Shown here piece by piece: positions 49,291-62,621 of a stretch of 64,000 nt of DNA (positions are counted from its first letter, which is position 1; each line of letters opens with the position of its first letter). A program made the position numbers and the translations under genes. This DNA comes from Corallococcus coralloides (lineage in GTDB: Bacteria > Myxococcota > Myxococcia > Myxococcales > Myxococcaceae): NCBI RefSeq assembly GCF_044792175.1, contig NZ_CP172866.1; one strand, given 5' to 3'. The notes beneath the pieces are model-generated. The model was not told the origin of the DNA. It did no database searches and worked only from the letters and a program-made list of their open reading frames with translations.

Positions 49291-52200
49291 CTACTTGTCG
49301 AGCTCGTCGACGAGCGCCGTCCAGTCGTCCTCACCGGCTTCGGGGGCGGTGGGCAACTGCATCACCATGGTGCGCTCCGGGGCCTCCTCGTCCACGGGGA
49401 CGGGGGTGGGCGCCGCCTTCTTCGCGGCCGGCTTTGCGGCGGCCTTGGCCGGAGGCTTGGCGGCTGCCGGGATGACCGGGTTGGCCTGGACGGTGGCGGC
49501 CAGGTGCTCGTCCTCGGGGGCCTTGGCGCCGGCCTTCGCGGCGGGGGCGGCGGCCGCGGCGGGGGCCTTGGTCTTGTAGCGGGCCAGCTCCAGCTCGGCG
49601 ACCTTGAGCGCCTTGCTCTTCTCCTGGACGGACGTCTGGAGGCGGGCGACCTCCTGGGCCTTGATGGCCTCGCGGCGCTCGAGCTCCGCCTTCTGCTTGG
49701 CGTTGAGGTCCTCCAGCTCCTTGGCCTGACGGGCCTCCAGGTCCTTGCGCTCCTTCTGCGCCGTGGCGAGCCTGGCGGCCGCCTCGTTGGCCTTGGTCTC
49801 CGCCGCGGCGACGCGGGCGTTGAGGTCCTTCTCCGCGCGGGCGCGGGTGCTCTGGGCGTTCTCCAGCGCCAGCTCCAGGTCCTGGGCCTTCTTGGTGCGG
49901 GCCTGCAACTGGGCCTGGGCGTCCTTGAGCTTCGCCTCCGTGTCGGCGGCGAACTTCTGGGCCTCCTGGGCGAGCTGGGCGATGCGCTGCTCGGCCTTGG
50001 CGAGCTTCGCGGCCAGGTCGTCCGACTGCTTCTTCGCCTCGGCGGCGGCGGCCTGCGCCTGCTGGGCCTGCTGTTGGGCCTGGGCCTGGGCCTGCTGGAG
50101 CTGTCCGGCCAGCCCGTCGCGCTCGCTGGTGAGCTTCTTCTGCTGGTTCGCGGCCTGCTGGAGCTGTCCGTCGCGGTCCGCGATGGCCTTGCGCGCGCCG
50201 TCCAGCTCGCCGGAGACGTTGGAGAGCTGCTGGTGGAGCGCGTCCGCCTGCTTCTTCGCCTCGGCGGCCTGGTGCTCCAACTGGCCTTCCAGTTGCTTCA
50301 CCTGCTCCGTGCGGGTGGAGACCTCGCGGTTGAGCACCTCCGCCTGACGCATCTTCTCCTGCGTCACGTGCGTGAGCTTGCGGAGCGTGTCCGACAGCTC
50401 CTTGCCCTTGGTGTCGACCTCGTTCTGGAGGAGCTCCTCACGGCGCTGCGACTCGTGGGTGAGCGTCTGGAGGCGGTCCTCCAGGTGGTGCCGCGCGTCC
50501 TCCGTCTGCGCGAGCGTGGAGGACAGTTGCGTGACTTCCGACACGCGCGTGCCCAGCTCGTGCTTGGTGACGATGAGCTGCTCGGCCAGGTCCTCGCCGT
50601 TGGCCTGGGCCTCGGTGAGCTGGCGCGTGAGCTCCGCCTGGGCGCTGGCGGCGGCCTCGCGGGACTGCGCGTGGGCCTGCTCCTCGCGGGCGAGCGCGTC
50701 CTGGGTGCTGGCGAGCTGGCCCTGCGTGTCGGCCAACTGCCGCGAGGTGGCGTTCAGCTCCGCGAACAGGTTGTCGCGCTCGCCGGTGAGGGCGTTGATG
50801 CGCGCGGTGGTCTCCTCCGCGAGCGCCGCGTGGGCGGTGCGCTCCGCGTCGTAGAGCCCCTGCGTCTCGGACAGGTCCGCGCGCAACTGGCCAATCTGGC
50901 CGGTGAGGTCCTGCTCCAGCGCGTCCTTCGCCGTGTTGAGCGCCGCCAGCTCCGCGATGCGCGCGTCGCGCTCCTCGGTGGTGCGGGCGAGGAGGCCGTT
51001 GGTCTCCTGGAGGATGTCGCGCGTCTCGTTGAGCTCCGCGTCCAACTCGTCGCGGTGCGAGGTGACCTTCGCCAGGTCGGCGCGCGTCGACTCCAGGGTC
51101 TCCTGGGTCTGCGTCAGCGTCTGGCTGGTGGCCTCCAGCTCGCCGCGCGTCTCCGCGAGCGTGCCCTCGGTGCTGGAGAGCGTCGCCTGCGTCTCGGAGA
51201 GCGTGGCCTCCGTGCGCGCCAGCGTGTCCTGCGTCTGCGCGAGGGTGGATTCGGTGGTGGCCAGCGTCTGGCTGGTGGCCTCCAGCTCGCCCTGGGTGGA
51301 CGCGAGCGTCCCTTCCGTCTGCGCGAGCCTGGCCTGCGTGTCCGTCAGCGTCTGGCTGGTGGCCTCCAGCTCGCCGCGCGTCTCCGCGAGCGTGCCCTCC
51401 GTGCTGGTGAGCGTGGCCTGCGTGTCGGAGAGGCTCTGGCTGGTGGCCTCCAGCTCACCGCGCGTGGTGGAGAGCGTCTCCTCCGTCTGCGCGAGCTTGG
51501 ACTGGGTGTCCGCCAGGGTCTGGCTGGTGGCCTCCAGCTCGCCGCGCGTCTCCGCGAGCGTGCCCTCGGTGCTGGAGAGCGTCGCCTGCGTCTCGGAGAG
51601 CGTGGCCTCCGTGCGCGCCAGCGTGTCCTGCGTCTGGGCGAGCGTGGACTCGGTGGTGGCCAGCGTCTGGCTGGTGGCCTCCAGCTCGCCGCGCGTGGTG
51701 GAGAGCGTCTCCTCCGTCTGCGCCAGGCGCGTCTGCGTCTCGGAGAGCTGCTGGCTGGTGGCCTCCAGCTCGCCGCGCGTCTCGGAGAGGGTGGCCTCCG
51801 TGTTGGAGAGCGTGCCCTGCGTCTCGGAGAGCTGCTGGCTCGTCGCCTCCAGCTCGCCGCGCGTCTCCGCGAGCGTGGCCTCCGTGCCGGAGAGCGTGTT
51901 CTGCGTCTCGGAGAGCTGCTGGCTCGTGGCCTCCAGGTTGCCGGTCAGCTCGGCGATGCGGGCGTCGCGGTCGGAGACGTCGGTCTGCAGGCCCTCGATG
52001 GTGCCGTCGCGCTGGGTGACGGTGTCCTCGAGCGAGGCCACGCGCGCGGAGAGCTGCTCGCCCTGGCGCTGGGACGCGTCGAGCTGCTCGGTGAGCGCTT
52101 GAATCTGGCCGTTGAGGTCCGCCTCCAGGGCGTCCTTCGCCGCGCGCAGGTCCTCCAACTGGCTGGTGAGGTCCTGCTCCAGCGCGTCCTTGGCCTGCTG

Positions 52201-53895
52201 CAGCGCCTGGAGCTCCGCGGTCAGCTCGTTCTCGCGGTCCTCCAGGTGCGTCTTGACGGCCTCGACTTCGCCTTCCAGCTCACCGATGCGCTCGCGGTGC
52301 TGCTGGATGGTGGCGTTGAGCTCCGCCTCGCTGTTCTCGTTGCGGGCGATGGTCTCCTGCAGCTCGCGGTCGAGCGCGGAGATCTTCGCGTCCCGCTCCT
52401 CCAGGCGCTGCGTGAGGTCCGCCTCCAGGGCGTCCTTGTCCAGCCGGAGCTGGTCGCGCTCGCCGGTGACGCGCGCGATGTCGGACTCCAGGTCCGCCAC
52501 CTGCTGCGTGAGGCGCTGCTCCAGGGCGGCGCGCTCGGCGTTGAGGCGCTCAATCTCCGCGTCCGAGCGGCTGGCGTGCTCCTCCGCCGTGGTGGCCCGG
52601 GCCTCCAGGCCGCGCACGGTGGCGTCGCGCTCCTGCTCCGTCTGGGTCAGCCGCTCCTGGAGGGCCTGCAGCTCGCCGTCCAGCTCGGCGTAGCGCTGGT
52701 CGCGCTCGCTGACGGTGCGGGCCAGCTCGGACTCGAACTGATCGCCGCGCTCGCGCAACTGGAGGATGTCCGCCTCGTTGGCGCGGACGGTGTCCTGGAG
52801 CTTCTGCTCCTTGACCTCGAACTCCAGCGTGACGACGCCGAGGTGCTTCTCCAGCTTGTCGAACTCGTTGCGCCAGCTCTCCAGGTCCGCGCCGCGCCGG
52901 GCCAGCTCCTCGTCGCGGAGGTTGACCTCCTTGCGCAGGACGTTGATGTCCTTCTCCTTGGAGGCGACGACCTCGATGAGGTCCTTCTCCGAGGAGAACT
53001 TCTGGAGGAGCAGGTCGTCGACGGTGGCGCCGTGCTCGCGCTCCTTCTGGACGATGGACTGCTGCGCGTCGTTGAAGCGGCGCAGCAGGTCGTCCACCTG
53101 CATCTTCAGGCCCTGCAGCTCCACGTCCTTCTCGTGGAGGCGGTCCTCGACGGAGAGCAGCTCGCGCTCGCGGACGCTCCAGATCTCCGACAGGCGCGCG
53201 AGCTGGGCTTCGCGCGTCTTCAGCTCGTCCCGGAGGATTTGAATCTTGCCCTCGGGCGTGCCCATCAGCTCGCGGCGCGGGGGCGGGCGCTTGAGCTGAC
53301 GCGACTCCGCCAGCAGCTCCGCCTTGCGGTCCGCGATGGACGAGAAGGCCCGGTCCATGAAGGCCTTGTCCTCGTCCGTCATGGCGCTGCGGCGCTCGCG
53401 CTTGGGCAGCTTGGGCGGGGCGCCCGTGCGCACGCCGGGCATGGGCGGCGGGGCTTCACGCGGCTGGCCGGAGAGCGCGGCGTCCAGGTCCGCGTCGGAC
53501 TCGTCGGAGCCGGGCGGCACGATGCCCGCGCTCATGGAGGCCAGCTCGCCCATCTCGAACGGGATGACGAGGTAGCCGTCCGCGGCGGCCGGCGTCTCAC
53601 GGTGTTTGTTCAGACCCTCCACACCGGAGTCGGAGGAGAGCAGGAGGACCTTCAGGTTCTGGCCCCACTTGCCCTTCTTGATCTGCCCACAGAGGGCGAA
53701 GCCGGACTGGTCCGGCAGCTCCGCGCGCACGACGACGAGGTCGGGTCGGCGCTTCTCCAGCTCCCGCTGCGCGTCTGACGCAGTGGTGGCCATGGCCGTG
53801 TTGTAGCCCGCGCTCTTGAGCACGGAGGCCATGCTGAGTGCGAAGTCGTTCTGGCTTTCGACGATGAGGACGCGACGCTCCATGAAGCCCTTCAC
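49291..53895 (-). CDS. response-regulator receiver domain fused to a very long coiled-coil (AglZ/FrzS-like architecture)
   Basis: N-terminal CheY-like receiver (VLIVESQNDFALSMASVLKSAGY...) followed by about 1300 aa of heptad-repeat coiled coil and an Ala/Pro/Lys-rich tail; 1534 aa. Confidence 0.8.
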   Translation of the reverse strand: MKGFMERRVLIVESQNDFALSMASVLKSAGYNTAMATTASDAQRELEKRRPDLVVVRAELPDQSGFALCGQIKKGKWGQNLKVLLLSSDSGVEGLNKHRETPAAADGYLVIPFEMGELASMSAGIVPPGSDESDADLDAALSGQPREAPPPMPGVRTGAPPKLPKRERRSAMTDEDKAFMDRAFSSIADRKAELLAESRQLKRPPPRRELMGTPEGKIQILRDELKTREAQLARLSEIWSVRERELLSVEDRLHEKDVELQGLKMQVDDLLRRFNDAQQSIVQKEREHGATVDDLLLQKFSSEKDLIEVVASKEKDINVLRKEVNLRDEELARRGADLESWRNEFDKLEKHLGVVTLEFEVKEQKLQDTVRANEADILQLRERGDQFESELARTVSERDQRYAELDGELQALQERLTQTEQERDATVRGLEARATTAEEHASRSDAEIERLNAERAALEQRLTQQVADLESDIARVTGERDQLRLDKDALEADLTQRLEERDAKISALDRELQETIARNENSEAELNATIQQHRERIGELEGEVEAVKTHLEDRENELTAELQALQQAKDALEQDLTSQLEDLRAAKDALEADLNGQIQALTEQLDASQRQGEQLSARVASLEDTVTQRDGTIEGLQTDVSDRDARIAELTGNLEATSQQLSETQNTLSGTEATLAETRGELEATSQQLSETQGTLSNTEATLSETRGELEATSQQLSETQTRLAQTEETLSTTRGELEATSQTLATTESTLAQTQDTLARTEATLSETQATLSSTEGTLAETRGELEATSQTLADTQSKLAQTEETLSTTRGELEATSQSLSDTQATLTSTEGTLAETRGELEATSQTLTDTQARLAQTEGTLASTQGELEATSQTLATTESTLAQTQDTLARTEATLSETQATLSSTEGTLAETRGELEATSQTLTQTQETLESTRADLAKVTSHRDELDAELNETRDILQETNGLLARTTEERDARIAELAALNTAKDALEQDLTGQIGQLRADLSETQGLYDAERTAHAALAEETTARINALTGERDNLFAELNATSRQLADTQGQLASTQDALAREEQAHAQSREAAASAQAELTRQLTEAQANGEDLAEQLIVTKHELGTRVSEVTQLSSTLAQTEDARHHLEDRLQTLTHESQRREELLQNEVDTKGKELSDTLRKLTHVTQEKMRQAEVLNREVSTRTEQVKQLEGQLEHQAAEAKKQADALHQQLSNVSGELDGARKAIADRDGQLQQAANQQKKLTSERDGLAGQLQQAQAQAQQQAQQAQAAAAEAKKQSDDLAAKLAKAEQRIAQLAQEAQKFAADTEAKLKDAQAQLQARTKKAQDLELALENAQSTRARAEKDLNARVAAAETKANEAAARLATAQKERKDLEARQAKELEDLNAKQKAELERREAIKAQEVARLQTSVQEKSKALKVAELELARYKTKAPAAAAAPAAKAGAKAPEDEHLAATVQANPVIPAAAKPPAKAAAKPAAKKAAPTPVPVDEEAPERTMVMQLPTAPEAGEDDWTALVDELDK
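51090..51945 (-). repeat. intragenic tandem repeats (84-bp / 28-aa units RGELEATSQxLxxTQxxLxxTExTLxxT) with a 180-bp exact segment duplicated about 400 bp apart
   Basis: About ten 28-aa units. A 60-aa segment (RGELEATSQTLATTESTLAQTQDTLARTEATLSETQATLSSTEGTLAETRGELEATSQTL) occurs twice verbatim at nt 51513-51693 and 51114-51294. Confidence 0.8.
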
Positions 53896-53982: not shown

Positions 53983-56787
53983 TCACGAGTTCTTGCCGCG
54001 AACCGCTCCCTGGCCGACAGGCGGGACCGACCCGGGGGACTCGCCTGCTTCCGGATCCCGCCCGGGGAAGTTGGTGGGCGGGGTGTGCCGGGCGAAGCGG
54101 GCGCCCTCGGGGGGACAGTACCCGTGCGCGAGCTGGGCGAACCACGGGTTGAGGGTGGAGTCGGGGGGCGCGGGCGGGGGCCCCGGGTCCTCGGCGTCCG
54201 CGGACTCCACGTCGAGCGAGTCCGCGTCCTGGACCTCGTCGGCGGCGATCTCCTCCGCCTCTTCCAGCGCCGCGCTGGCGGTGGAGGGCGTGTTCCCGGC
54301 GTCGTCGTCCAGGGACAGGGCCTCGTCGGCGGCGATCTCCTCCGGCTCATCGTCCGGGTGCGCGGCCGAGGGCTTCAGCACGGGGGGCGTGGGGATCAGC
54401 CGGGGCGGCGGTCCCTGGCGCGGAACGGGCGGCGGCGCGGCGGCGCGGGGCGGTAGCTGCGGCGGGCGGTCCGCGTCGGAGACGGAGCCACCGCGGATGG
54501 GCGGCTTGTCGGACTCCGTGAGCACGGGGGGGCGGGCGGCGGGCCGGCCTGGATCCGCGGCGAGGCCGCCACGGATGGGCGGTTTGTCCGCGTCGGCCAT
54601 GGGAGAGGGAGTGGGGAAGAGACGCGGAGGTTCAGAGGGGACCGGATCCGCTGGCCGCTGCGCACGGCCGGCGCCCGTGCTTCGCGCCCCGTTCTGCAGC
54701 GAGCGCATGGGCACGATGGGCGTGGGCGCGGGAGGCTCCTCTTCCTCACGCATGACCCCGGTCCGGCGCACGACCGGGGTGGGGGCCCGCTCCTCGTCCT
54801 CCGAGAGGGAGGGGGGACGGCGCACGATGGGCGTGGGCGCGGGAGGCTCTTCCTCGGAGGCCGGCCTGCGCACGATGGGCGTGGGCGCGGGAGGTTCTTC
54901 CTCGGAGGCGGGCCTGCGCACGACGGGCGTGGGCGCGGGAGGCTCTTCCTCGGAGGGCGGCCTGCGCACGACGGGGGTGGGGGCCGGCGTGCTCGTGTCG
55001 TCCTCCGCCACCGGCCGGCGCACCACGGCCGTCGCTCCGGCGGAGACATCCTCGGAGTCCCCGGCGTCGTCCCCACCGGCATCCTTCAAGCCGAGCGCCT
55101 TCACCAGGGGGCTCGTCACCATCTCCGTGGGGGGAGACGGCTCCGCGCCACGGCCTCCCAGTGGTTCCGGCTCCTCGGCCTTCGCGGGGGCGGAGGGCAG
55201 CGCCGTCTTCGCGGTGTCGTCGGTCGTCCTGGAGGCGGAGGCGGCCCCGGGCTCCGGCGGGGGCGTGGCTTCCCGGCTCGCGGGGGCCGGATCGGACTTG
55301 CCTGACTCGCGCAGCGGCAGGCCCATGACCATGGGCACTTCGTCCGGCCGCATGTCCGGCTCGGTCTTGACGAGCCGGGTGTCCATCCCGTCGTCCAGGG
55401 CCATGCCCATCACCACGGGCGGGTCCTCCGCCGGGACCTCCTTCGCGGGCGGCGGGGCGGCTTCGTCGGCCCCGGCCTGAGGCGCCGGCTTCGAGGGCGG
55501 CCTGGGCGCCGCGGGCTGGGACGCCTCCGGCATGCCCAGGCTCGCGAGCCGGTTCGTGGGCGTGCCCGTCATCGTGACGTCGGGCGGCTCGCTGGCGGCT
55601 TCGACCGGGACGTGGCCGCGCTTCTCCAGCAGCGAGTCATACAGGTCCAGCAACTGGCCCCGGATGAGGCCCGCGTCCAGCACCTTCTCCGCGAACGCGC
55701 GCCCGGCCTTGCCCAGCGCCACGCGGCGGGGCACGTCGCGCGCCAGGTCCAGGATGCGCTCGGAGAGGGCGCGGCTGTCGCCCGGGGGGAAGAAGACGGC
55801 CGCGTCCTTTGGAAGCAGCTCGCGGGTGACGGGCAGGTCCGCTGCGATGACCGGCCGGCCGGCGGCCAGGTACTCGGAGACCTTGGCCAGCGGTCCGCCC
55901 TGGAGCCGGTTGCGCTCCGAGTCGTCCAGCGGCAGCACGCCCACGTCCGCCAGCGCCAGCACCTTGACCAGGTCGTCGTGCGCGACGGGCGGCTGGAAGT
56001 CGACCTTCTCCTTGATGCCCAGGTCGTTGACCAGGTCCTCCAGGTGGGGCTTCCAGTCCGGATGGTGCGCGCCCACCAGCGTCAGGCGCACGTCCACCTG
56101 CTGGGACGCGAGCGCGGTGGCGCGCAGGAGGGTGGGCAGGCCCTGCCAGCCCACGTGGCTGCCCAGGTACATCATGCGCAGGGGCGAGCCGTCCGGGGCG
56201 CCGAGCACCTCCGGGTCGTACGGCTTCAGGTCCACGGGCGCGCGGATCGTGCGCAGTTGGTCCTCCGCCGCGCCCAGCCCCTGGATGTACGCGCGCGTCG
56301 TCTGCGAGCCGGTGACGACGAGGTCCGCGTTCATCAGGCAGAACAGCTCCTGGCGGCGGATCTTCGACAGGAAGCGGCGGTCCCCGTCCGTCTGCGGGTG
56401 GGTGTAGCGCAGCTCCTGGGAGGGGAAGGTCTGCGCCTCATAGATGAGGCGGTAGCCGTAGTCCGCCTTCAGCTCGCAGAGCGCGTAGCCCCCGAAGGGG
56501 TCCGTGAAGTGGGCGAGCGCGTAGTCCTCGCTCTCCAACTGGCGGCGCACGGCCCGCTCAAAGGACTGGATGCGCGACGCCAGGTCCCCGGAGCCTACCG
56601 GGACGCGGAGCAGCCGGGCGCCCTGGTACTTCTCGATATGGGAGTGGTCGGGCGTCTTCGCCGACAGCACCACCACGGAGAAGCGATCAGGCAACGCCTT
56701 CAGATACTCGGTCAGTCGGCGTGAGGAGCCAGACGGGCCGGGGATGACGTCGAAGCTGCACAGGAGAAGTCTGGGCAGGTCACTCAA
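53983..56787 (-). CDS. GT4-family glycosyltransferase with about 540-aa Pro-rich low-complexity C-terminal extension
   Basis: N-terminal about 390 aa GT-B/GT4 with the EX7E-type region GGPLAKVSEYLAAGRPVIAA. The C-terminus is disordered and Pro/Glu/Ala-rich with repeats. Confidence 0.8.
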   Translation of the reverse strand: MSDLPRLLLCSFDVIPGPSGSSRRLTEYLKALPDRFSVVVLSAKTPDHSHIEKYQGARLLRVPVGSGDLASRIQSFERAVRRQLESEDYALAHFTDPFGGYALCELKADYGYRLIYEAQTFPSQELRYTHPQTDGDRRFLSKIRRQELFCLMNADLVVTGSQTTRAYIQGLGAAEDQLRTIRAPVDLKPYDPEVLGAPDGSPLRMMYLGSHVGWQGLPTLLRATALASQQVDVRLTLVGAHHPDWKPHLEDLVNDLGIKEKVDFQPPVAHDDLVKVLALADVGVLPLDDSERNRLQGGPLAKVSEYLAAGRPVIAADLPVTRELLPKDAAVFFPPGDSRALSERILDLARDVPRRVALGKAGRAFAEKVLDAGLIRGQLLDLYDSLLEKRGHVPVEAASEPPDVTMTGTPTNRLASLGMPEASQPAAPRPPSKPAPQAGADEAAPPPAKEVPAEDPPVVMGMALDDGMDTRLVKTEPDMRPDEVPMVMGLPLRESGKSDPAPASREATPPPEPGAASASRTTDDTAKTALPSAPAKAEEPEPLGGRGAEPSPPTEMVTSPLVKALGLKDAGGDDAGDSEDVSAGATAVVRRPVAEDDTSTPAPTPVVRRPPSEEEPPAPTPVVRRPASEEEPPAPTPIVRRPASEEEPPAPTPIVRRPPSLSEDEERAPTPVVRRTGVMREEEEPPAPTPIVPMRSLQNGARSTGAGRAQRPADPVPSEPPRLFPTPSPMADADKPPIRGGLAADPGRPAARPPVLTESDKPPIRGGSVSDADRPPQLPPRAAAPPPVPRQGPPPRLIPTPPVLKPSAAHPDDEPEEIAADEALSLDDDAGNTPSTASAALEEAEEIAADEVQDADSLDVESADAEDPGPPPAPPDSTLNPWFAQLAHGYCPPEGARFARHTPPTNFPGRDPEAGESPGSVPPVGQGAVRGKNS
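54700..55030 (-). repeat. tandem repeats encoding EEPPAPTP(V/I)VRRP(A/P)SEE, about 5 copies (about 57-bp unit)
   Basis: Read from the translated GT4 tail. Two DKPPIRGG repeats lie further downstream. Confidence 0.7.
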
Positions 56788-56916
56788 GCGGTCGCAGGAT
56801 ACTTGGACAGGGGTGAGGTGTCATCGGGCGTGACGGATGAAGTAGGGGGTCGGCGGAACAACACATCCCGTGACGGATGCGTTGACCCCCTGTATGCCGC
56901 GTCATAACGAGGCGAG

Positions 56917-59406
56917 GTGTCCATGGATGAGCGGAAGGGCGTCACCGTGAGCTACCTGCGGCAGCTAGCCCGGAAATTTCTCCGGGAGGGAGCTGGCGCG
57001 TCCCGCGGGCGGGAGCTGGTCTCCACGCTGGCCGAGCGCATTCCCGCCCTGGGGCGGCTCGCGCGCATGGCCGGGCTGGCGACGTCCCGGCGCGGCTCCG
57101 GTGCCGTGCCCGGCGAGGAGCGCTCGCTGGACTCCGGCCGGGCGGACTCCCGCTCCGCGAGGAGCCCGACGCCCGAGTCCGTGCCCCTGCCTCCGTCCGA
57201 GGGTGCCGCCGCGCCGCAGGCACGAGAACTTTCCGAGGAGCCCATCACGGAGCCCAGCGGTGGCCCCAGGACGCGGCCCGCGCGCGTGGTGACGTTCCCC
57301 GCCCGCGCGAAGACGCGCCGCGACCCGGACGACGAGGACACGCAGTCCCTGGGGCCGGAGACGGCGACGCCGCGCCCGTCAGGTTCGCCCAAGGGCGAGG
57401 TGCCCGCCGCCGCGCCGCCCGCGCCCGTGAGCGAGCCGCCGCATGCCGCCGAGCCCCTGGTGGAGGGGTTCTTCGTGACGAAGATGGCGGGGGAGAAGGA
57501 GGCGCGCCGCCATCACCTCCTGGAGGAGCAGGCGCCGCGCCTTCCTCCGGCGGACGTGTCGCCCGAGCGCAACGAGCACCTGGCCATGCTTCCCCTGGAC
57601 TACCAGGACGACGCGATGGTGCTGCTCGCGAGGGATCCGCACACGCTCTTCGTCTTCTGGGACTTCAGCGCCGCGAGCCGGAGCCGGGCGCTGGACGGCC
57701 TGCCGGTGCCGCGCGCGGTGCTGAAGGTGTTCGACGGCGAGGGCGTGTCGCGCGAGGTGGACTTCGCGCTGGAGTCGCGCAGCTTCTATCTGCAGGGCAT
57801 GACGCCCGGGCGCACGTACCGGGTGGAGGCGCACTTCGTCGGTTCGGATGGCCGGTCGCGCCGCATCGGACATTCGTCCAATCGGGCCACGCTGCCGCCC
57901 GCGGGGCCGTCCGCGGACACGTCCATCCGGTTCCTGCGCATGCCGCCTCCGCCGGTGGTGGACCGCCTGCGCGAGGCCATCCCCGCGGCGGCGTCCGCGC
58001 GAGTTCCCCGGGTGGAGGAGCGCGAATACGTCACCTGGCGCCGGGTGCGGTTGCCGGGGAGCGCCGGGGTGGTGGACGAGCCGGAGGTCCACCGCGAGCG
58101 CATCGAGGACTATGTCGATGCGCCGCGCGTCCCCGGGGCCTCGGACCAGCGCTATGTGGAGGAGGAGTATCTGGAGAGCGCGCCGCGAGCGCCCGGGGCG
58201 TCGGACCAGCAGTACGCGCGCGTGGGGGAGGCGACGCTCGGTGAGGGCGCGGTGCTGGCCCCGTCTCGCGCACCCGGGGCGTCGGATCAGCGCTACCTGG
58301 CCGTGGAGCTGGCTCCGGGGGCTTCGGACCAGCGCTACGGTGGAGAGGTTGCGGGGGCCCCGTATCTGGAGGTGCCGCGCGCGCCGGGGGCTTCGGACCA
58401 GCGCTACGGTGGAGAGGTCGCGGGAGCCCCGTATCTGGAGGTGCCGCGCACGCCGGGTGCTTCGGATCAGCGGTACGGACAGTCGCTGCTGCCGGGCGGC
58501 GTTTCGGAGTACCGCTATCTGGAGGTGCCGCGTGCCCCGGGCGCTTCGGACCAGCGGTACGTGGCGGGAGGGCAGGGGACCCTGGAGGCGCCACGCGCGC
58601 CGGGGACTTCGGACCAGCGCTACCTGAGCGTGCCCCGTGCCGCGGGCGCATCGGATCAGCGGTACCTCACCGTGCCTCGCGCAGCGGGGGCGTCGGACCA
58701 GCAGTACCTCACGGTGCCGCGTGCGCCGGGCGCTTCGGACCAGCAGTACCTGAGCATGCCTCGCGCCGAGGGCGCTTCGGACCAGCAGTACCTCACCGTG
58801 CCGCGCGCGGCGGGCGCTTCGGATCAACGCTACCTGTCCGTGGATCGCGCCACGGGTGCGTCGGATCAGCAGTACATGACGGCGCCTCGGGCGGCGGGCG
58901 CTTGGGATCAGCGCTCCCCGTCCGCGGATCGTGCCGCGGGTGTGCCGGATCAAGCCGAGGCGTCACTTGCGGCCGGGTGCTCGGATGCCTGGTCTCCGGA
59001 GGGGCCGCGCTCACGGGGTGACGTGCTCGAAGCGCGTGAACTCTCGTCGTCTCGTCCCGCCGCGACCTCGGCTCCGGCGGGATCCGGTCCATCAACGCAG
59101 GGCGCGGCCTCCACGGATTCGTGGCGGCCCACGGAGCCCGAGCCTCCCAGGGACCCATGGGCCTTGAGCGTGGCGCGCGGCCCCTCCGCGTCCGAACAGC
59201 GTGCCCTCGACAAGGCCCGCGAGGCCGCCGAGGCCACGCGACGTGCCGCACCGGCCGCCGCGCCCACGAGCCCCGAGCCCGCGAAAACGGACACCGTGAC
59301 GTCCCCGCCCGCCGCGCCCACGAAGGCGGCCCAGAACCCACCGGAGCCCAAGCCCTCGGGCTCCAAGTCCTCCAAGTCCCGGCCCTCGCGCCGTGGACGG
59401 AAGTGA
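56917..59406 (+). CDS. DUF4912 domain protein with long tandem-repeat extension
   Basis: DUF4912-like core LPLDYQDDAMVLLARDPHTLFVFWDF. About 15 copies of PRAPGASDQRYL and a Pro/Ala-rich basic tail. GTG at 56917 (ATG at 56923). Confidence 0.7.
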   Translation: MSMDERKGVTVSYLRQLARKFLREGAGASRGRELVSTLAERIPALGRLARMAGLATSRRGSGAVPGEERSLDSGRADSRSARSPTPESVPLPPSEGAAAPQARELSEEPITEPSGGPRTRPARVVTFPARAKTRRDPDDEDTQSLGPETATPRPSGSPKGEVPAAAPPAPVSEPPHAAEPLVEGFFVTKMAGEKEARRHHLLEEQAPRLPPADVSPERNEHLAMLPLDYQDDAMVLLARDPHTLFVFWDFSAASRSRALDGLPVPRAVLKVFDGEGVSREVDFALESRSFYLQGMTPGRTYRVEAHFVGSDGRSRRIGHSSNRATLPPAGPSADTSIRFLRMPPPPVVDRLREAIPAAASARVPRVEEREYVTWRRVRLPGSAGVVDEPEVHRERIEDYVDAPRVPGASDQRYVEEEYLESAPRAPGASDQQYARVGEATLGEGAVLAPSRAPGASDQRYLAVELAPGASDQRYGGEVAGAPYLEVPRAPGASDQRYGGEVAGAPYLEVPRTPGASDQRYGQSLLPGGVSEYRYLEVPRAPGASDQRYVAGGQGTLEAPRAPGTSDQRYLSVPRAAGASDQRYLTVPRAAGASDQQYLTVPRAPGASDQQYLSMPRAEGASDQQYLTVPRAAGASDQRYLSVDRATGASDQQYMTAPRAAGAWDQRSPSADRAAGVPDQAEASLAAGCSDAWSPEGPRSRGDVLEARELSSSRPAATSAPAGSGPSTQGAASTDSWRPTEPEPPRDPWALSVARGPSASEQRALDKAREAAEATRRAAPAAAPTSPEPAKTDTVTSPPAAPTKAAQNPPEPKPSGSKSSKSRPSRRGRK
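58120..58945 (+). repeat. about 15 tandem 42-45-bp repeats encoding (V)PRAPGASDQ(R/Q)YL(T/S)
   Basis: Direct reading of the nucleotide and protein sequence; variable spacers between copies. Confidence 0.8.
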
Positions 59407-59432
59407 ACCCGCACGGCCTCTCCGACCGACCT

Positions 59433-61022
59433 ATGAGCCTGGGCTCCCTCGCGCTGGTCCTTCACGCGCACCTGCCGTTCGTCCGCCACCCCGAGTACGA
59501 AGACTTCCTCGAGGAGGACTGGCTCTACGAAGCCATCTCCGAGACGTACCTGCCGCTCCTGCGCGTGTTCGACAAGCTGGTCGAGGACCGCGTCCCCTTC
59601 CGGGTGACGATGACGCTCTCGCCCACGCTCGTGTCGATGCTCAACGACGACCTGCTGCGCGAGCGCTACGCCCGGCGGCTGGATTCGCTCTGCGAGCTGG
59701 GCGCCCGCGAGGTGCACCGCACCCGGGACGACCCCACCTTCCACCCGCTGGCCGTCTTCCACCGCGACCACTTCGAATCGCTGCGGCTCGCGTACCACAA
59801 CCACTACCGGCGCGACCTGGTGGCCGCGTTCCGCAGGCTCCAGGACTCCGGCCACCTGGACATCCTCACCTGCAACGCGACCCACGGCTTCCTGCCGCTC
59901 ATGCAGCAGACGCCGGAGGCCGTGCGCGCCCAGGTGACGGTCGCGGCGAACCACTACCGTCAGAACTTCGGCCGCGACCCCGCCGGCATCTGGCTGGCCG
60001 AGTGCGGCTACTACCCGGGCCTGGAGCGCATCCTCTCCGCCGAGCGCATCCGCTACTTCTTCGTGGACACGCACGCGCTCACGGACGCCACGCCCCGCCC
60101 GCTGCACGGCCCCTACGCGCCCATCTTCACGGAGCCCGGCGTGGCCGCCTTCGCTCGCGACCCGGAGAGCAGCCAGCAGGTCTGGAGCACCGAGCACGGC
60201 TACCCCGGCGACCCCGTCTACCGCGAGTTCTACCGGGACATCGGCTGGGACCTGGACCTGGACTACATCCGGCCCTTCATCCAGCCCACCGGCGACCGCA
60301 AGAACACCGGCTTCAAGTACTTCCGCATCACCGGCAAGACGAACGACAAGCAGCCCTACGACCCGGCCGCCGCCCGCGAGCGCGCCTGGGTCCACGCGGG
60401 CAACTTCCTCTTCAACCGCGAGCGCCAGTTCGAATACCTCGCGTCCCGCATGGGCGGCCGCAAGCCCGTGGTCGTCGCGCCCTATGACGCGGAGCTCTTC
60501 GGCCACTGGTGGTTCGAGGGCCCCCACTTCATCGACGCGCTCATCCGCCAGGCCGCGCGCAACCCCAGCCGCTTCACGCTCATCAGCCCGCTGGACGACC
60601 TGCGCGAGCACCCGGAGAACCAGGTGGCGACGCCGCCCCTGTCCTCGTGGGGCGCGGGCGGCTACGCGAACATGTGGCTGGATGGCACCAACGACTGGAT
60701 CTACCGGCACCTCACCCACGCGGCGCGGCAGATGGTGGAGCTGGCCCGGGACTTCCCGGACGCGCCGTCCCTCAAGCGCCGGGCGCTGAACCAGGCCGCG
60801 CGCGAGCTGCTGCTGGCGCAGGCCTCCGATTGGGCCTTCATCATGAAGACCGGCACCATGGTGGACTACGCCGTGCGCCGCACGAAGGAGCACCTGCAGC
60901 GCTTCCTGCGCCTGCACGACCAGGTGCGCGCCGGCACCGTCGACGAGTCCTGGCTGTCCCACGTCGAAGACCGCGACAACCTGTTCCCCGAGCTGGACTA
61001 CCGCGTCTACCGGCCCGGTTGA
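59433..61022 (+). CDS. glycoside hydrolase family 57 (alpha-glucan branching enzyme / amylase type)
   Basis: GH57 N-terminal motif LVLHAHLPFVRHPEYE and downstream conserved Glu/Asp regions; 529 aa. Confidence 0.8.
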   Translation: MSLGSLALVLHAHLPFVRHPEYEDFLEEDWLYEAISETYLPLLRVFDKLVEDRVPFRVTMTLSPTLVSMLNDDLLRERYARRLDSLCELGAREVHRTRDDPTFHPLAVFHRDHFESLRLAYHNHYRRDLVAAFRRLQDSGHLDILTCNATHGFLPLMQQTPEAVRAQVTVAANHYRQNFGRDPAGIWLAECGYYPGLERILSAERIRYFFVDTHALTDATPRPLHGPYAPIFTEPGVAAFARDPESSQQVWSTEHGYPGDPVYREFYRDIGWDLDLDYIRPFIQPTGDRKNTGFKYFRITGKTNDKQPYDPAAARERAWVHAGNFLFNRERQFEYLASRMGGRKPVVVAPYDAELFGHWWFEGPHFIDALIRQAARNPSRFTLISPLDDLREHPENQVATPPLSSWGAGGYANMWLDGTNDWIYRHLTHAARQMVELARDFPDAPSLKRRALNQAARELLLAQASDWAFIMKTGTMVDYAVRRTKEHLQRFLRLHDQVRAGTVDESWLSHVEDRDNLFPELDYRVYRPG

Positions 61023-61112: not shown

Positions 61113-62621
61113 TTGAGGAAATCCATGACCCACACGCTCCCTCCGTTCCGTCGCAAGCTCGTGGCCGCCGTGCTGGTGCTGGCGTCGCCCACGCTCGCCC
61201 TCGCGCAGGCGCCCGCTCCCAAGCCGCCCGCGCCCCAGACGCAGCAGGCGGTCTCCGGTCAGGCCGGCAACCTCCAGCCCGCCACGCGCGAGGCCCAGTC
61301 GCTGGCCTCGCTGGCGCCCCTGGTGGAGTCGGTGAAGTCCGCGGTGGTGAACGTGGACGTGCAGGCCCGTCCCGAGATGCCGGAGGGCATGGAGGACAAC
61401 CCGCTCTTCGACCGGTTCTTCGGCGGCAACGGGCGGGACCGCCGCCGCAGCGAGCGCGAGCAGATCCGCCAGGGCGCCGGGTCCGGCTTCATCATCGACC
61501 CCAAGGGCCTGGTGCTCACCAACAACCACGTCATCGAGGACGCGGTCACCATCACCATCCGCCTGGATGACGGCCGTTCGTTCACGGGCGAGGTGGTGGG
61601 CCGCGACCCGCTCACCGACGTGGCCGTGGTGAAGATCAAGGAGAAGGTGGATCAGCTCCCCTCCGTGAAGCTGGGCGACTCCGACGCCGTGCGCGTGGGG
61701 GACTGGGTGCTGGCCATTGGCAACCCGTTCGGCCTGGCCTCCAGCGTGAGCGTGGGCATCCTGTCCGCGCGCGCCCGGGAGATTGGCGCCAGCGTGTACG
61801 ACGACTTCCTGCAGACGGACGCGGCCATCAACCCCGGCAACTCCGGAGGCCCGCTCTTCAACATGAAGGGCGAGGTGGTGGGCATCAACACCGCCATCGT
61901 CGGCGGCGGCACGGGCATCGGCTTCTCCGTGCCCAGCAACCTCATCAAGGCGCTGCTGCCGCAGTTGGAGAAGGAGGGCGCCGTCACGCGCGGCTGGCTG
62001 GGCGTGGGCATCCAGCCCCTCACGCGCGAGCTGGGCCAGGCGCTGAAGCTGTCGGTGAGCGAGGGCGCCATCCTCACGCAGATCACCCCCGACTCCCCGG
62101 CGGCGAAGGCCGGGCTCAAGCCGGACGACGTGGTGGTGGCCGTGGACGGCAAGCCGGTGCGCTCCGACAGCGAGCTCACCCGCACCGTGGCGCTCAAGAA
62201 GCCCAACAGCGTCGCCACGCTGACCCTCTACCGCGACGGCAAGAAGCAGGACGTCAAGGTGACCATGGGCACCCGGCCGGACCTGGAGGGCCTGTCCAAG
62301 AAGAAGCCGTCGGCCAACGACGAGCAGGACAGCTCGCGCCGCGTGGGCGTGTCCCTGCAGGACCTGGACGCCCGCACGGCGTCCCAGGCCGGCTTCACCG
62401 AGCGCGCCGGAGCGCTGATCACCGACATCGTCCCGGGCTCGCCCGCGGACCGCGCGCAGTTGACGCCGGGCATGCTGGTGGTGGAGGCGAATAAGAAGCC
62501 CATCGCGAGCGCGAAGGAGCTGGCCTCGGCCATCCGCGCCGCGCCCAAGGGCAGCACGCTGCTGTTGCGCGTGGCCGGCCCCGGCGGCGGGCGCCTGCTG
62601 CGCGCGCTGACCGTGCCCTGA
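61113..62621 (+). CDS. periplasmic serine endoprotease HtrA/DegP family (trypsin-like plus 2 PDZ)
   Basis: Signal peptide; catalytic triad context HVIED / D..VVKI / GNSGGPL; two PDZ domains. Confidence 0.9.
   Translation: MRKSMTHTLPPFRRKLVAAVLVLASPTLALAQAPAPKPPAPQTQQAVSGQAGNLQPATREAQSLASLAPLVESVKSAVVNVDVQARPEMPEGMEDNPLFDRFFGGNGRDRRRSEREQIRQGAGSGFIIDPKGLVLTNNHVIEDAVTITIRLDDGRSFTGEVVGRDPLTDVAVVKIKEKVDQLPSVKLGDSDAVRVGDWVLAIGNPFGLASSVSVGILSARAREIGASVYDDFLQTDAAINPGNSGGPLFNMKGEVVGINTAIVGGGTGIGFSVPSNLIKALLPQLEKEGAVTRGWLGVGIQPLTRELGQALKLSVSEGAILTQITPDSPAAKAGLKPDDVVVAVDGKPVRSDSELTRTVALKKPNSVATLTLYRDGKKQDVKVTMGTRPDLEGLSKKKPSANDEQDSSRRVGVSLQDLDARTASQAGFTERAGALITDIVPGSPADRAQLTPGMLVVEANKKPIASAKELASAIRAAPKGSTLLLRVAGPGGGRLLRALTVP

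What the first reader, a model, noticed from the sequence alone, without database searches (positions are those of the whole stretch)
53983..61022. GT4 - DUF4912 - GH57 alpha-glucan gene cluster in which two members carry lineage-specific repeat-rich disordered extensions
A GH57 enzyme (59433-61022), a DUF4912 protein (56917-59406) and a GT4 glycosyltransferase (53983-56787, divergent) form the conserved trio associated with GH57-type alpha-glucan metabolism in other bacteria (established co-occurrence). Here the GT4 protein is 934 aa: about 390 aa of catalytic domain plus about 540 aa of Pro/Glu/Ala-rich tail with EEPPAPTPVVRRP repeats. The DUF4912 protein is 829 aa, with about 15 PRAPGASDQRYL repeats and a basic tail. 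Such extensions are absent from the typical 300-450 aa homologs. They suggest scaffolding or localisation, for example polar or condensate-like targeting. The AglZ-like coiled-coil protein encoded immediately downstream of GT4 could be such a scaffold.
Basis: partly seen in the sequence, partly recalled or inferred. Interest (0 to 1): 0.55.

Follow-up and report, generated by a model that had tools for sequence, protein, structure and literature searches.

The report
Repeat-extended glucan genes beside aglZ
In this Corallococcus genome, a sugar-transferring enzyme and the unstudied partner protein of a glycogen-type enzyme both carry long, floppy, repeat-filled extensions whose copy number varies between relatives, but their function is still only a guess.

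Summary
The three genes, their domains and both repeat arrays are real, in frame and coding. The window is a Corallococcus genome, and the locus is the ortholog of Myxococcus xanthus aglZ (MXAN_2991) to MXAN_2994.

- The widely conserved unit is a pair, not a trio. A DUF4912 gene sits directly upstream of an AmyC-type GH57 gene in 24/24 Myxococcota loci and in 59/68 diverse metagenome loci (median gap 19 nt).
- A GT4 like this one lies next to the pair only in Myxococcaceae-type loci, always co-oriented just upstream of aglZ. It was absent from 76/80 metagenome loci.
- The extensions are not private to this genome. All listed GT4 orthologs have tails (full-length 712-1590 aa), and DUF4912 orthologs range from 289 to 939 aa, against a family median of about 340-360 aa.
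- Copy number varies. Counts of the exact DUF4912 motif range from 3 to 16 in Corallococcus. The closest strain's GT4 differs by exactly two 16-aa units.
- The DUF4912 repeat is an amplified ancestral motif (LGASE became PGASDQ[RQ]Y). Gly, Ser, Asp, Gln and Tyr are invariant despite synonymous codon change.
- The GT4 tail holds invariant islands and a roughly 30-aa terminal motif.

Scaffolding, condensates or a link to AglZ remain untested inference.

The parts
49291..53895 (-). AglZ ortholog (receiver-like N-terminal domain plus long coiled coil, 1534 aa), 87 nt downstream of GT4 on the same strand
   Evidence: Pfam Response_reg aa 9-120 plus coiled-coil hits. The first 330 aa are 83% identical to the M. 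xanthus DK1622 protein at the syntenic position. AglZ = MXAN_2991 (PMC4546325).
51103..51977 (-). Tandem repeats inside the AglZ coiled coil (periods 84, 147, 231 and 399 nt)
   Evidence: TRF gives a 399-nt period at 89% matches, score 1249. AglZ is 1534 aa here against 1395 aa in M. xanthus.
55618..56787 (-). GT4 catalytic GT-B domain (aa 1-390), TTG start
   Evidence: Pfam Glyco_transf_4, Glycos_transf_1 and Glyco_trans_1_4. 64-98% column identity to orthologs. The best solved relative is only the Tll1590 protein, 6KIH, at E 7e-11.
53986..55617 (-). GT4 C-terminal extension (aa 391-934), acidic, Pro-rich and predicted disordered
   Evidence: 21% Pro, net charge -39, on the disordered side of the charge-hydropathy boundary. 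AF2 pLDDT is below 45 throughout, but the model is weak overall. No Pfam match. GC3 is 0.82-0.95.
54706..55029 (-). Array of 16-aa units (EEPPAPTP[VI]VRRPxS), six clear copies
   Evidence: The closest strain (P0121, 96% identical) has exactly two more units. There are 0 units in the Archangium, Stigmatella and Melittangium orthologs and 1-12 in Myxococcus and Corallococcus.
55309..55575 (-). Invariant islands in the proximal tail: TGTPTNRL (aa 405-413), PPVVMGxxLDxGxDTRLxKTEPD (457-476), PxVMGLPLRE (485-493)
   Evidence: These columns are invariant in a 41-ortholog alignment. Window-wise identity is 0.55-0.68, against 0.13-0.24 in the flanking tail segments aa 501-600.
54055..54153 (-). Conserved C-terminal motif NPWFAQLAHGYCPPEGxxFARHTPPTxFPGRD (aa 879-911)
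   Evidence: 0.91 identity across 28 orthologs. W882 to R910 are invariant. Found by tblastn in L001, L002, L022 and L023. AF2 predicts a short helix at aa 881-887.
56788..56922 (.). Divergent intergenic region between GT4 and DUF4912, with one sigma-70-like site reading towards GT4 (56824-56796)
   Evidence: one site found against 0.1 expected from shuffles. This is a consensus match only.
56917..59406 (+). DUF4912 protein gene (829 aa from the GTG; probably 827 aa from the ATG at 56923)
56938..57051 (+). N-terminal helix-hairpin-like segment (VTVSYLRQLARK...), homologous to the Rho_N-type N-terminus of other DUF4912 proteins
   Evidence: Conserved in nearly all homologs. PF07498 is recorded for homolog P0276. 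Pfam does not detect it in this protein itself.
57445..57516 (+). Conserved peptide EPLVEGFFVxxxxGExEARRHHL (aa 177-200) ahead of the fold
   Evidence: E14, G15, F16, F17, A19, E26 and H30 of alignment A1 are nearly invariant. AF2 pLDDT is low (51-64), which suggests a linear motif.
57601..58122 (+). DUF4912 beta-sandwich (aa 229-339) followed by a long beta-hairpin (aa 362-401)
58123..59001 (+). Array of 14 intact and 2 degenerate [PR]xxGASDQ[RQ]Y units (spacing 14-28 aa)
   Evidence: G, S, D, Q and Y are invariant in 14/14 copies, with 199 synonymous against 58 non-synonymous pairwise codon differences in the core.
59332..59403 (+). Basic C-terminal tail ending ...SRPSRRGRK, the local form of the family's '(P)SGRG'-type end
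59433..61022 (+). GH57 enzyme of the loop-less AmyC type (529 aa), 26 nt after the DUF4912 stop codon
   Evidence: Pfam GH57 plus BE_C. E 1e-169 to T. maritima AmyC (2B5D), with no insertion at the loop site and only short gaps elsewhere. HAHLP, ECGY and ELFGHW fingerprints are present (PMC9291813).
61113..62621 (+). HtrA/DegP-family serine protease. A syntenic neighbour, not argued to be part of the system.
   Evidence: NCBIfam TIGR02037 at 460 bits, above its cutoff. The same position is occupied in L001, L022 and L026.

Best explanation
The locus joins two units back to back.

Unit 1 is an ancient, tightly coupled two-gene operon, DUF4912 then GH57, for cytoplasmic alpha-glucan (glycogen-like) remodelling.
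- The GH57 is a loop-less AmyC-type branching/hydrolysing enzyme.
- The DUF4912 protein is its non-catalytic partner. It consists of an N-terminal helix-hairpin, a conserved peptide, a fibronectin-III-like beta-sandwich and a disordered C-terminus carrying a short motif.

Unit 2 is a GT4-aglZ gene pair found beside unit 1 only in Myxococcaceae-type genomes.

Both extensions are intrinsically disordered regions that carry short linear motifs.
- In DUF4912, a single ancestral C-terminal motif (LGASE/GSSE) was amplified by in-frame tandem duplication to about 15 copies of PGASDQ[RQ]Y, and selection has kept the peptide.
- In GT4, a roughly 540-aa acidic proline-rich tail keeps four invariant islands and a terminal ~30-aa motif. 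A 16-aa unit within it is currently expanding and contracting.

The most likely role is multivalent docking. The motif array would raise the number of binding sites for a partner that is still unidentified (GH57, GT4 or the glucan particle), so that the enzymes are concentrated together.

Shown: the anatomy, the conservation, the operon coupling, the selection on the motif and the copy-number variation. Inferred: any binding, the effect of valency, any localisation and any link to AglZ.
For: Domains and anatomy.

Operon coupling:
- GH57 follows DUF4912 in 24/24 loci found through DUF4912.
- DUF4912 lies directly upstream of GH57 in 59/68 loci found through GH57, with GC content from 0.28 to 0.72.
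- The gap has a median of 19 nt and is 30 nt or less in 48/77 loci.

The motif is ancestral and is single-copy in shorter homologs. A G-x-S-S-type motif also appears in non-myxobacterial homologs.

Purifying selection on the repeat peptide: G, S, D, Q and Y are invariant, with 199 synonymous against 58 non-synonymous codon differences.

Copy-number variation:
- 3-16 exact motif copies in Corallococcus orthologs.
- A difference of two units in GT4 between 96%-identical strains.

Conserved islands in the GT4 tail.

Disorder: composition and charge-hydropathy, AF2 pLDDT below 45 and no Pfam match.

GT4 co-occurs with aglZ in the window and in L001, L002, L022 and L023.
Against: - No interaction was tested, so the partner of either motif array is unknown.
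- The AF2 model of full-length GT4 is poor even in part of the catalytic domain, so its low tail confidence is weak evidence of disorder.
- The GT4 16-aa units are young (93% DNA identity) and show no sign of selection. They may be neutral spacer.
- The C-terminal module of DUF4912 differs between phyla. Many homologs carry an LRPDGTFTLRFALPDG-type domain instead, so the motif may serve a lineage-specific function unrelated to GH57.
- GT4 may have nothing to do with the glucan pair.
Confidence: 0.5

Rival explanations
1. The extensions are largely neutral low-complexity DNA. Replication slippage and unequal recombination in a 70% GC genome generate them, and they are tolerated because they sit in disordered linkers. 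The repeats have no function beyond acting as spacers.
For: - Tail length varies greatly among orthologs: full-length GT4 is 712-1590 aa and DUF4912 is 289-939 aa.
- The GT4 units are 93% identical at DNA level and differ in number between near-identical strains.
- Column identity between the conserved islands is only 0.13-0.24.
- AglZ next door also carries young tandem repeats.
Against: - The DUF4912 units keep G, S, D, Q and Y in 14/14 copies while their codons have diverged synonymously.
- The same motif exists as a single conserved copy in distant homologs.
- The GT4 tail contains invariant islands and a terminal motif at 0.91 identity.
Confidence: 0.22
2. GT4 belongs functionally with AglZ and gliding motility, not with alpha-glucan metabolism. 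It might glycosylate a motility component or make a motility-associated glycan. On this view its position beside DUF4912-GH57 is a historical accident of insertion.
For: - GT4 is co-oriented with aglZ and 87 nt upstream of it. Only a weak terminator-like site lies between them.
- A GT4 of this lineage is present in every locus where it could sit between aglZ and DUF4912 except L026.
- It is absent from the other Myxococcota DUF4912-GH57 loci and from 76/80 metagenome loci.
- In Anaeromyxobacter and Vulgatibacter, glnE lies where the aglZ-GT4 block sits in Myxococcaceae. This fits an inserted block.
Against: - L026 has aglZ directly beside DUF4912-GH57 with no GT4, so aglZ adjacency does not require GT4.
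- No paper in the searched library links MXAN_2992 to motility.
- GT4-GH57 pairing is known elsewhere: the mycobacterial Rv3032/Rv3031 genes (my own knowledge; the GH57 side is mentioned in PMC9291813).
Confidence: 0.2
3. The DUF4912 repeat array is a substrate, not a scaffold. Its invariant Ser or Tyr would be glucosylated by the GT4 or another enzyme, making DUF4912 a glycogenin-like protein primer with many start sites. GH57 would then branch the growing chains.
For: - Every unit has an invariant Ser and Tyr.
- A retaining-type GT4 and a branching-type GH57 flank the gene.
- Loop-less GH57 enzymes have puzzlingly low activity on free amylose in vitro (PMC9291813).
Against: - Tyr is missing from the motif in most lineages, for example GSSEQ in Archangium and Stigmatella and LGASE in Anaeromyxobacter-type proteins.
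- The motif occurs where no GT4 is adjacent.
- There is no sequence similarity to glycogenin (GT8).
- Nothing was tested.
Confidence: 0.08

Closest known systems
Myxococcus xanthus DK1622 locus aglZ (MXAN_2991) - MXAN_2992 - MXAN_2993 - MXAN_2994
   Same: Gene order and orientation are identical: aglZ and GT4 on one strand, then DUF4912, GH57 and htrA on the other. Identities are 83% (GT4 catalytic domain), 60% (DUF4912 core) and 84% (GH57). The M. xanthus proteins also carry extensions: GT4 is 1055 aa and DUF4912 is 784 aa with PGASD[QLM]RY units.
   Different: Repeat units, their number and total lengths differ. Of the three M. xanthus genes, only MXAN_2994 is mentioned in the searched library, as a proximity-labelling hit of EpsW with no assigned role (PMC12802240).
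Thermotoga maritima AmyC (GH57, PDB 2B5D), a loop-less glycogen branching enzyme with high hydrolytic activity
   Same: It matches the window GH57 along its whole length at E 1e-169, with no insertion at the flexible-loop site. The HxHLP, ECGY and ELFGHW fingerprints are shared.
   Different: The activity of the Corallococcus enzyme is untested. I could not check whether AmyC itself has a DUF4912 neighbour.
DUF4912 (PF16258), the 'Rho-like' Rho_N-only proteins noted in cyanobacteria
   Same: The beta-sandwich domain scores 67.6 bits against a cutoff of 29.4. The N-terminal helix-hairpin is homologous to that of relatives annotated as Rho_N (PMC13613805).
   Different: This protein is 827-829 aa against a family median of about 340-360 aa. 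It carries an amplified C-terminal motif array. It lacks the LRPDGTF...PDG C-terminal domain that is common in other phyla.
Mycobacterial MGLP genes Rv3032 (GT4 alpha-1,4-glucosyltransferase) and Rv3031 (GH57)
   Same: A GT4 and a GH57 branching-type enzyme are encoded together for a cytoplasmic alpha-glucan. This rests on my own knowledge. PMC9291813 mentions the M. tuberculosis GH57 and its genomic context.
   Different: No DUF4912, no disordered tails and no aglZ. Similarity between this GT4 and Rv3032 was not tested.
Repeat-motif disordered scaffolds of enzyme bodies (CsoS2 and CcmM of carboxysomes, EPYC1 of pyrenoids)
   Same: This is an analogy of mechanism only. In each case a disordered protein carries a short motif repeated in tandem and is encoded beside the enzyme it could gather. 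This rests on my own knowledge.
   Different: There is no sequence relationship, and binding or condensation has not been shown here. The ancestral DUF4912 state is a single motif.

Membership tests
GH57 glycogen-branching-enzyme-type (AmyC subgroup) | Pfam Glyco_hydro_57 catalytic domain plus the BE_C C-terminal domain | tested here: met
   111.9 and 143.2 bits, both above their cutoffs.
GH57 glycogen-branching-enzyme-type (AmyC subgroup) | GBE fingerprints: HxHLP in region I, Cys next to the nucleophile Glu (ECGY) in region III, ELFGHW in region IV (PMC9291813) | tested here: met
   LHAHLPF, WLAECGYY and AELFGHWWFEG are all present in the translation.
GH57 glycogen-branching-enzyme-type (AmyC subgroup) | Flexible loop with a tip tyrosine, which marks the more active Thermus/Thermococcus-type branching enzymes | tested here: not met
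   The protein aligns to loop-less AmyC across the loop site without an insertion. NCBIfam equivalog scores of 325 and 320 bits are far below the cutoffs of 1000 and 920.
GH57 glycogen-branching-enzyme-type (AmyC subgroup) | Branching or hydrolytic activity on alpha-1,4-glucan | not testable with these tools
   Needs an enzyme assay.
GT4 retaining glycosyltransferases | GT-B fold with Glyco_transf_4 N-domain and Glycos_transf_1 C-domain | tested here: met
   Five Pfam GT4/GT1 models score above their cutoffs.
GT4 retaining glycosyltransferases | Assignment to a characterised specificity (glucan synthase, sucrose-phosphate synthase, MshA, PimB and others) | tested here: inconclusive
   All NCBIfam hits are far below their cutoffs; the best is 54 bits against 442. 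The best PDB hit is only E 7e-11.
DUF4912 (PF16258) | Match to the family model above the gathering score | tested here: met
   67.6 bits against 29.4. The AF2 beta-sandwich has pLDDT of 95-99.
DUF4912 (PF16258) | Rho_N-type N-terminal domain seen in many members | tested here: inconclusive
   The N-terminus aligns with homologs that carry PF07498. Pfam finds no match in this protein even at E of 1 or less.
'GT4 - DUF4912 - GH57 conserved trio' | DUF4912 and GH57 adjacent and co-oriented | tested here: met
   24/24 and 59/68 loci, with a median gap of 19 nt.
'GT4 - DUF4912 - GH57 conserved trio' | A GT4 gene regularly adjacent to the pair across lineages | tested here: not met
   A GT4 is present only in the window and in L001, L002, L022 and L023. 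None was found in the other Myxococcota loci. A GT-B-like ORF occurs in 4/80 metagenome loci. Glycos_transf_1 occurs in 4 of 124 nearest-neighbour ORFs, with Glyco_transf_5 (GT5) matching 3.
AglZ (gliding-motility coiled-coil protein) | Receiver-like N-terminal domain, long coiled coil, conserved ...DDWTALVDELDK end, and orthology to MXAN_2991 | tested here: met
   with synteny to CP000113.

The most novel reading that the evidence does not exclude
DUF4912 proteins are the missing obligate partners of the loop-less (AmyC-type) GH57 'branching enzymes'. That subgroup makes up about 92% of the family and is almost inactive alone in vitro. In Myxococcaceae the partner's docking motif has been amplified into a multivalent array. 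Together with the long-tailed GT4, it would build a localised alpha-glucan-making assembly tied to the AglZ gliding-motility scaffold.
Probability: 0.12. Interest if true: 0.7.

Novelty: new variant of a known kind. Interest (0 to 1): 0.42.

Why it matters
GH57 'branching enzymes' are widespread, but their physiological role is unclear, and the loop-less majority shows only mU/mg activity in vitro (PMC9291813). This survey shows that such enzymes are almost always encoded immediately after a DUF4912 protein. No paper in the searched library assigns that protein a function.

That makes one question directly testable: does the partner activate, target or prime the enzyme? The myxobacterial versions add a natural series of motif copy numbers, from 1 to about 16, that could be used to test the effect of valency.

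The conserved adjacency to aglZ raises, but does not establish, a link between glucan metabolism and the gliding-motility scaffold.

If none of this holds, the finding is simply another case of repeat-rich disordered tails in a high-GC myxobacterial genome.

Tried and rejected
- PDB sequence search with the whole DUF4912 protein found no match at E of 1 or less.
- NCBIfam has no family for DUF4912.
- Pfam on the isolated tails, the repeat array and the N-terminal 60 aa gave nothing meaningful.
- The AF2 model of full-length GT4 had mean pLDDT 47. It showed no docking of the conserved tail motifs and was poor even in the N-terminal Rossmann half. I did not use it for fold search.
- The Foldseek afdb50 library was unavailable.
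The accepted scan returned almost only Myxococcota-labelled MAGs. Breadth across phyla therefore came from the metagenome scan, which gives no taxonomy, only GC content from 0.28 to 0.72.
- Literature searches for DUF4912, MXAN_2992/2993/2994, aglZ with glycosyltransferase or glycogen, and DUF1957 with gene neighbourhood found no functional study.
- I considered that the tails might be frameshift or annotation artefacts and rejected it. GC3 is high in frame and the termini are conserved in orthologs.
- The resemblance between the AglZ C-terminal 'RTMVMQLP' and the GT4 island 'PMVMGLPLRE' is too short to weigh.


Full report
**What is in the window.** The ORF list and translations confirm four co-linear genes.
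- An AglZ-like protein, 49291-53895 (-), 1534 aa.
- A GT4 glycosyltransferase, 53983-56787 (-), 934 aa.
- A DUF4912 protein, 56917-59406 (+), 829 aa.
- A GH57 enzyme, 59433-61022 (+), 529 aa, followed by an HtrA/DegP protease.

Pfam places the GT4/GT1 domains in aa 19-387, DUF4912 (PF16258) in aa 229-334, and Glyco_hydro_57 plus BE_C across the GH57 protein. The nearest database relatives are Corallococcus proteins. The DUF4912 protein is 98% identical to that of Corallococcus sp. AS-1-12, and the GT4 is 96% identical to that of strain AS-1-6.

**The repeats are real and coding.**
- TRF reports a 48-nt period (93% matches) in the GT4 tail and periods of 42, 69 and 84 nt across 58315-58952 in DUF4912.
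- At protein level, DUF4912 has 14 intact and 2 decayed copies of [PR]xxGASDQ[RQ]Y between aa 403 and 695.
- GT4 has six PTP[VI]V[RP] units of a 16-aa repeat.
- Third-position GC stays at 0.81-0.95 in the called frames through both extensions, as in the catalytic parts.
- Orthologs keep the same N- and C-termini. Frameshift or annotation artefact is therefore excluded.
- The likely DUF4912 start is the ATG at 56923.
- Both extensions fall on the disordered side of a charge-hydropathy plot and are poor in order-promoting residues.
- An AF2 model of full-length GT4 gives pLDDT below 45 for aa 391-934, with only a short helix at 881-887. The model is weak overall, so this counts for little.
- Pfam finds nothing in the tails.

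**The locus is the ortholog of M. xanthus aglZ to MXAN_2994.** In DUF4912-anchored loci from M. xanthus DK1622, a complete Myxococcaceae genome and two MAG/metagenome contigs, the order is the same: aglZ and GT4 on one strand, then DUF4912 and GH57 on the other (L001, L002, L022, L023). An htrA homolog follows directly in L001 and L022 and lies a few kb downstream in L002 and L023. AglZ is MXAN_2991 (PMC4546325), and the GH57 is named MXAN_2994 in PMC12802240. So the 'AglZ-like' neighbour is AglZ itself.

**The conserved unit is a pair, not a trio.**
- In every locus reached through DUF4912, a GH57 gene follows directly. That is 24/24, including loci labelled Anaeromyxobacter, Vulgatibacter and unclassified Proteobacteria.
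- I then started from GH57. A metagenome scan returned 80 loci with GC content of 0.28-0.72 and 52-69% GH57 identity. A DUF4912 ORF lies directly upstream on the same strand in 59 of the 68 loci with enough upstream sequence.
- The stop-to-start gap has a median of 19 nt and is 30 nt or less in 48 of 77 cases.
- A GT4 of the window's lineage is found only in the five loci that also have aglZ in line with it. It was not found in the other Myxococcota loci.
- Any GT-B-like ORF is detectable in only 4/80 metagenome loci.
- A Pfam census of the 124 nearest-neighbour ORFs in 31 loci shows Glycos_transf_1 in four, GlgA-type Glyco_transf_5 in three, GlgC-like NTP_transferase in two and a second GH57 in two.
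- This fits alpha-glucan metabolism in general, but not a fixed trio.
- In Anaeromyxobacter- and Vulgatibacter-type loci, glnE sits where Myxococcaceae have the aglZ-GT4 block. That suggests the block was inserted.
- One metagenome locus, L026, has aglZ directly beside DUF4912-GH57-htrA with no GT4.

**The GH57 enzyme.** It matches T. maritima AmyC (2B5D) along its whole length at E 1e-169, with no insertion at the flexible-loop site. It carries the HAHLP, ECGY and ELFGHW fingerprints of GH57 branching enzymes. It is far below the NCBIfam equivalog cutoffs for the Thermococcales and Thermus enzymes. PMC9291813 reports that the loop is absent from 92% of the family and that such enzymes have very low activity in vitro.

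**The DUF4912 protein.**
- An exhaustive phmmer search found 654 clusters at E of 0.001 or less. The 122 newly retrieved representatives among the 150 best hits have a median length of 361 aa. In 57 complete metagenome ORFs the median is 338 aa and the maximum 470 aa. The window protein is therefore about 2.4 times the normal size.
- Shorter Myxococcota homologs share four features: an N-terminal helix-hairpin (Rho_N-type in annotated relatives), a conserved EPLVEGFFVARVxGE peptide, the sandwich, and a C-terminus with one LGASE/GSSE motif and an RPWSG/PSGRG-type end.
- Archangium and Stigmatella carry several PGGSSEQ units. Myxococcus carries PGASD[LQM]RY units. Corallococcus has 3-16 exact copies.
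- Within the window's array, Gly, Ser, Asp, Gln and Tyr are invariant in all 14 copies while codons differ. There are 199 synonymous against 58 non-synonymous pairwise differences. Selection is acting on the peptide.

**The GT4 tail.**
- All 120 best orthologs come from Myxococcaceae and related genera (Archangium, Stigmatella, Hyalangium and others). All have tails, and full-length proteins are 712-1590 aa.
- A 41-sequence alignment shows invariant islands: TGTPTNRL, PPVVMGxxLDxGxDTRLxKTEPD, PxVMGLPLRE and a terminal NPWFAQLAHGYCPPEGxxFARHTPPTxFPGRD. The stretches between them are poorly conserved.
- The 16-aa unit is absent from the Archangium, Stigmatella and Melittangium orthologs and occurs 1-12 times in Myxococcus and Corallococcus. 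The closest strain differs from the window by exactly two units.
- The catalytic domain cannot be assigned a specificity.

**Interpretation.**
- The evidence supports disordered, motif-bearing extensions. The DUF4912 array is maintained by selection. The GT4 16-aa array may be partly neutral.
- Multivalent docking is the most economical reading, but no partner has been identified.
- GT4 may serve the glucan pair or AglZ. Gene order favours a tie to aglZ, while L026 shows that aglZ adjacency does not need GT4.
- The idea that DUF4912 is the missing partner of loop-less GH57 enzymes follows from the operon statistics and from the literature on their low activity. It is inference, but it is directly testable.
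- No paper in the searched library addresses DUF4912 function.

**Verdict.** This is a lineage-wide, copy-number-variable variant of known families with no demonstrated function. Interest is moderate.

Noticed in passing
window 51103-51977 (-): AglZ itself carries young tandem repeats (84, 147, 231 and 399 nt; the 399-nt period has 89% matches). They encode ...ETRGELEATSQxLxxTQ... coiled-coil units. The protein is 1534 aa here against 1395 aa in M. xanthus, so three adjacent genes all show repeat expansion.
   Followed up: partly
L026:3132-9572 (metagenome contig Ga0207684_10000047): An aglZ homolog lies directly divergent from DUF4912-GH57-htrA, with no GT4 between them. aglZ adjacency to the pair therefore does not depend on the GT4.
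   Followed up: partly
L004:16128-16526 and L019:4695-5111 (Vulgatibacter MAGs): A gene with an AglZ/FrzS-like receiver domain (40-46% identical to AglZ aa 1-139) lies 2.6-6 kb downstream of GH57. It is cut off by the locus end, so whether it is an AglZ-type coiled-coil protein is unknown.
   Followed up: no
window 49291-49400 (AglZ C-terminus) and 55309-55335 (GT4 island): The AglZ orthologs end with a conserved 'ERTMVMQLP...DDWTALVDELDK'. The GT4 tail islands read 'PPVVMGxxL' and 'PMVMGLPLRE'. This short resemblance could be chance.
   Followed up: partly
P0063 (Myxococcus sp. CA051A DUF4912, 939 aa); also P0033 and P0085, annotated 'AlgP': In some Myxococcus species a different part of the same protein has expanded. 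The linker between the N-terminal hairpin and the domain has become a long Lys/Ala/Pro/Ser-rich 'KAKPQVEPKVKVAASSS' repeat. This histone-H1/AlgP-like composition explains the misleading 'alginate regulatory protein AlgP' names.
   Followed up: no
L030, L044, L047, L061-L063, L065, L070, L083, L085, L103 and others (DUF4912 ORFs upstream of GH57): Many non-myxobacterial DUF4912 proteins end in a conserved '...ATEPDAKVTVQGKxIxLRPDGTFTLRFALPDGKQxIPV...TITPxVTKETK' module that the Myxococcota proteins lack. The C-terminal module of this family evidently varies between lineages.
   Followed up: no
Corallococcus draft assemblies behind P0123 and P0130-P0138 (contigs of ~8.2-8.7 kb): Many draft genomes carry this locus on a short contig that ends inside the GT4 tail, giving 'partial' GT4 proteins. 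The repeats evidently break short-read assemblies, so published copy numbers are uncertain.
   Followed up: no
M. xanthus MXAN_2994 (L001:12381-13970): The GH57 ortholog was one of eleven proteins enriched by proximity labelling with the single-domain response regulator EpsW (PMC12802240). No role was assigned. It shows that the protein is made in vegetative cells.
   Followed up: no
window 61113-62621 (+): An HtrA/DegP protease follows GH57 here and in L001, L022 and L026, and lies a few kb away in L002 and L023. This is conserved synteny of unknown significance.
   Followed up: no
L018 (contig labelled Fredinandcohnia sp., GC 0.71): A 71% GC contig with a Myxococcota-like DUF4912-GH57 pair is binned as a Bacillaceae MAG. 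This is probably a binning error.
   Followed up: no
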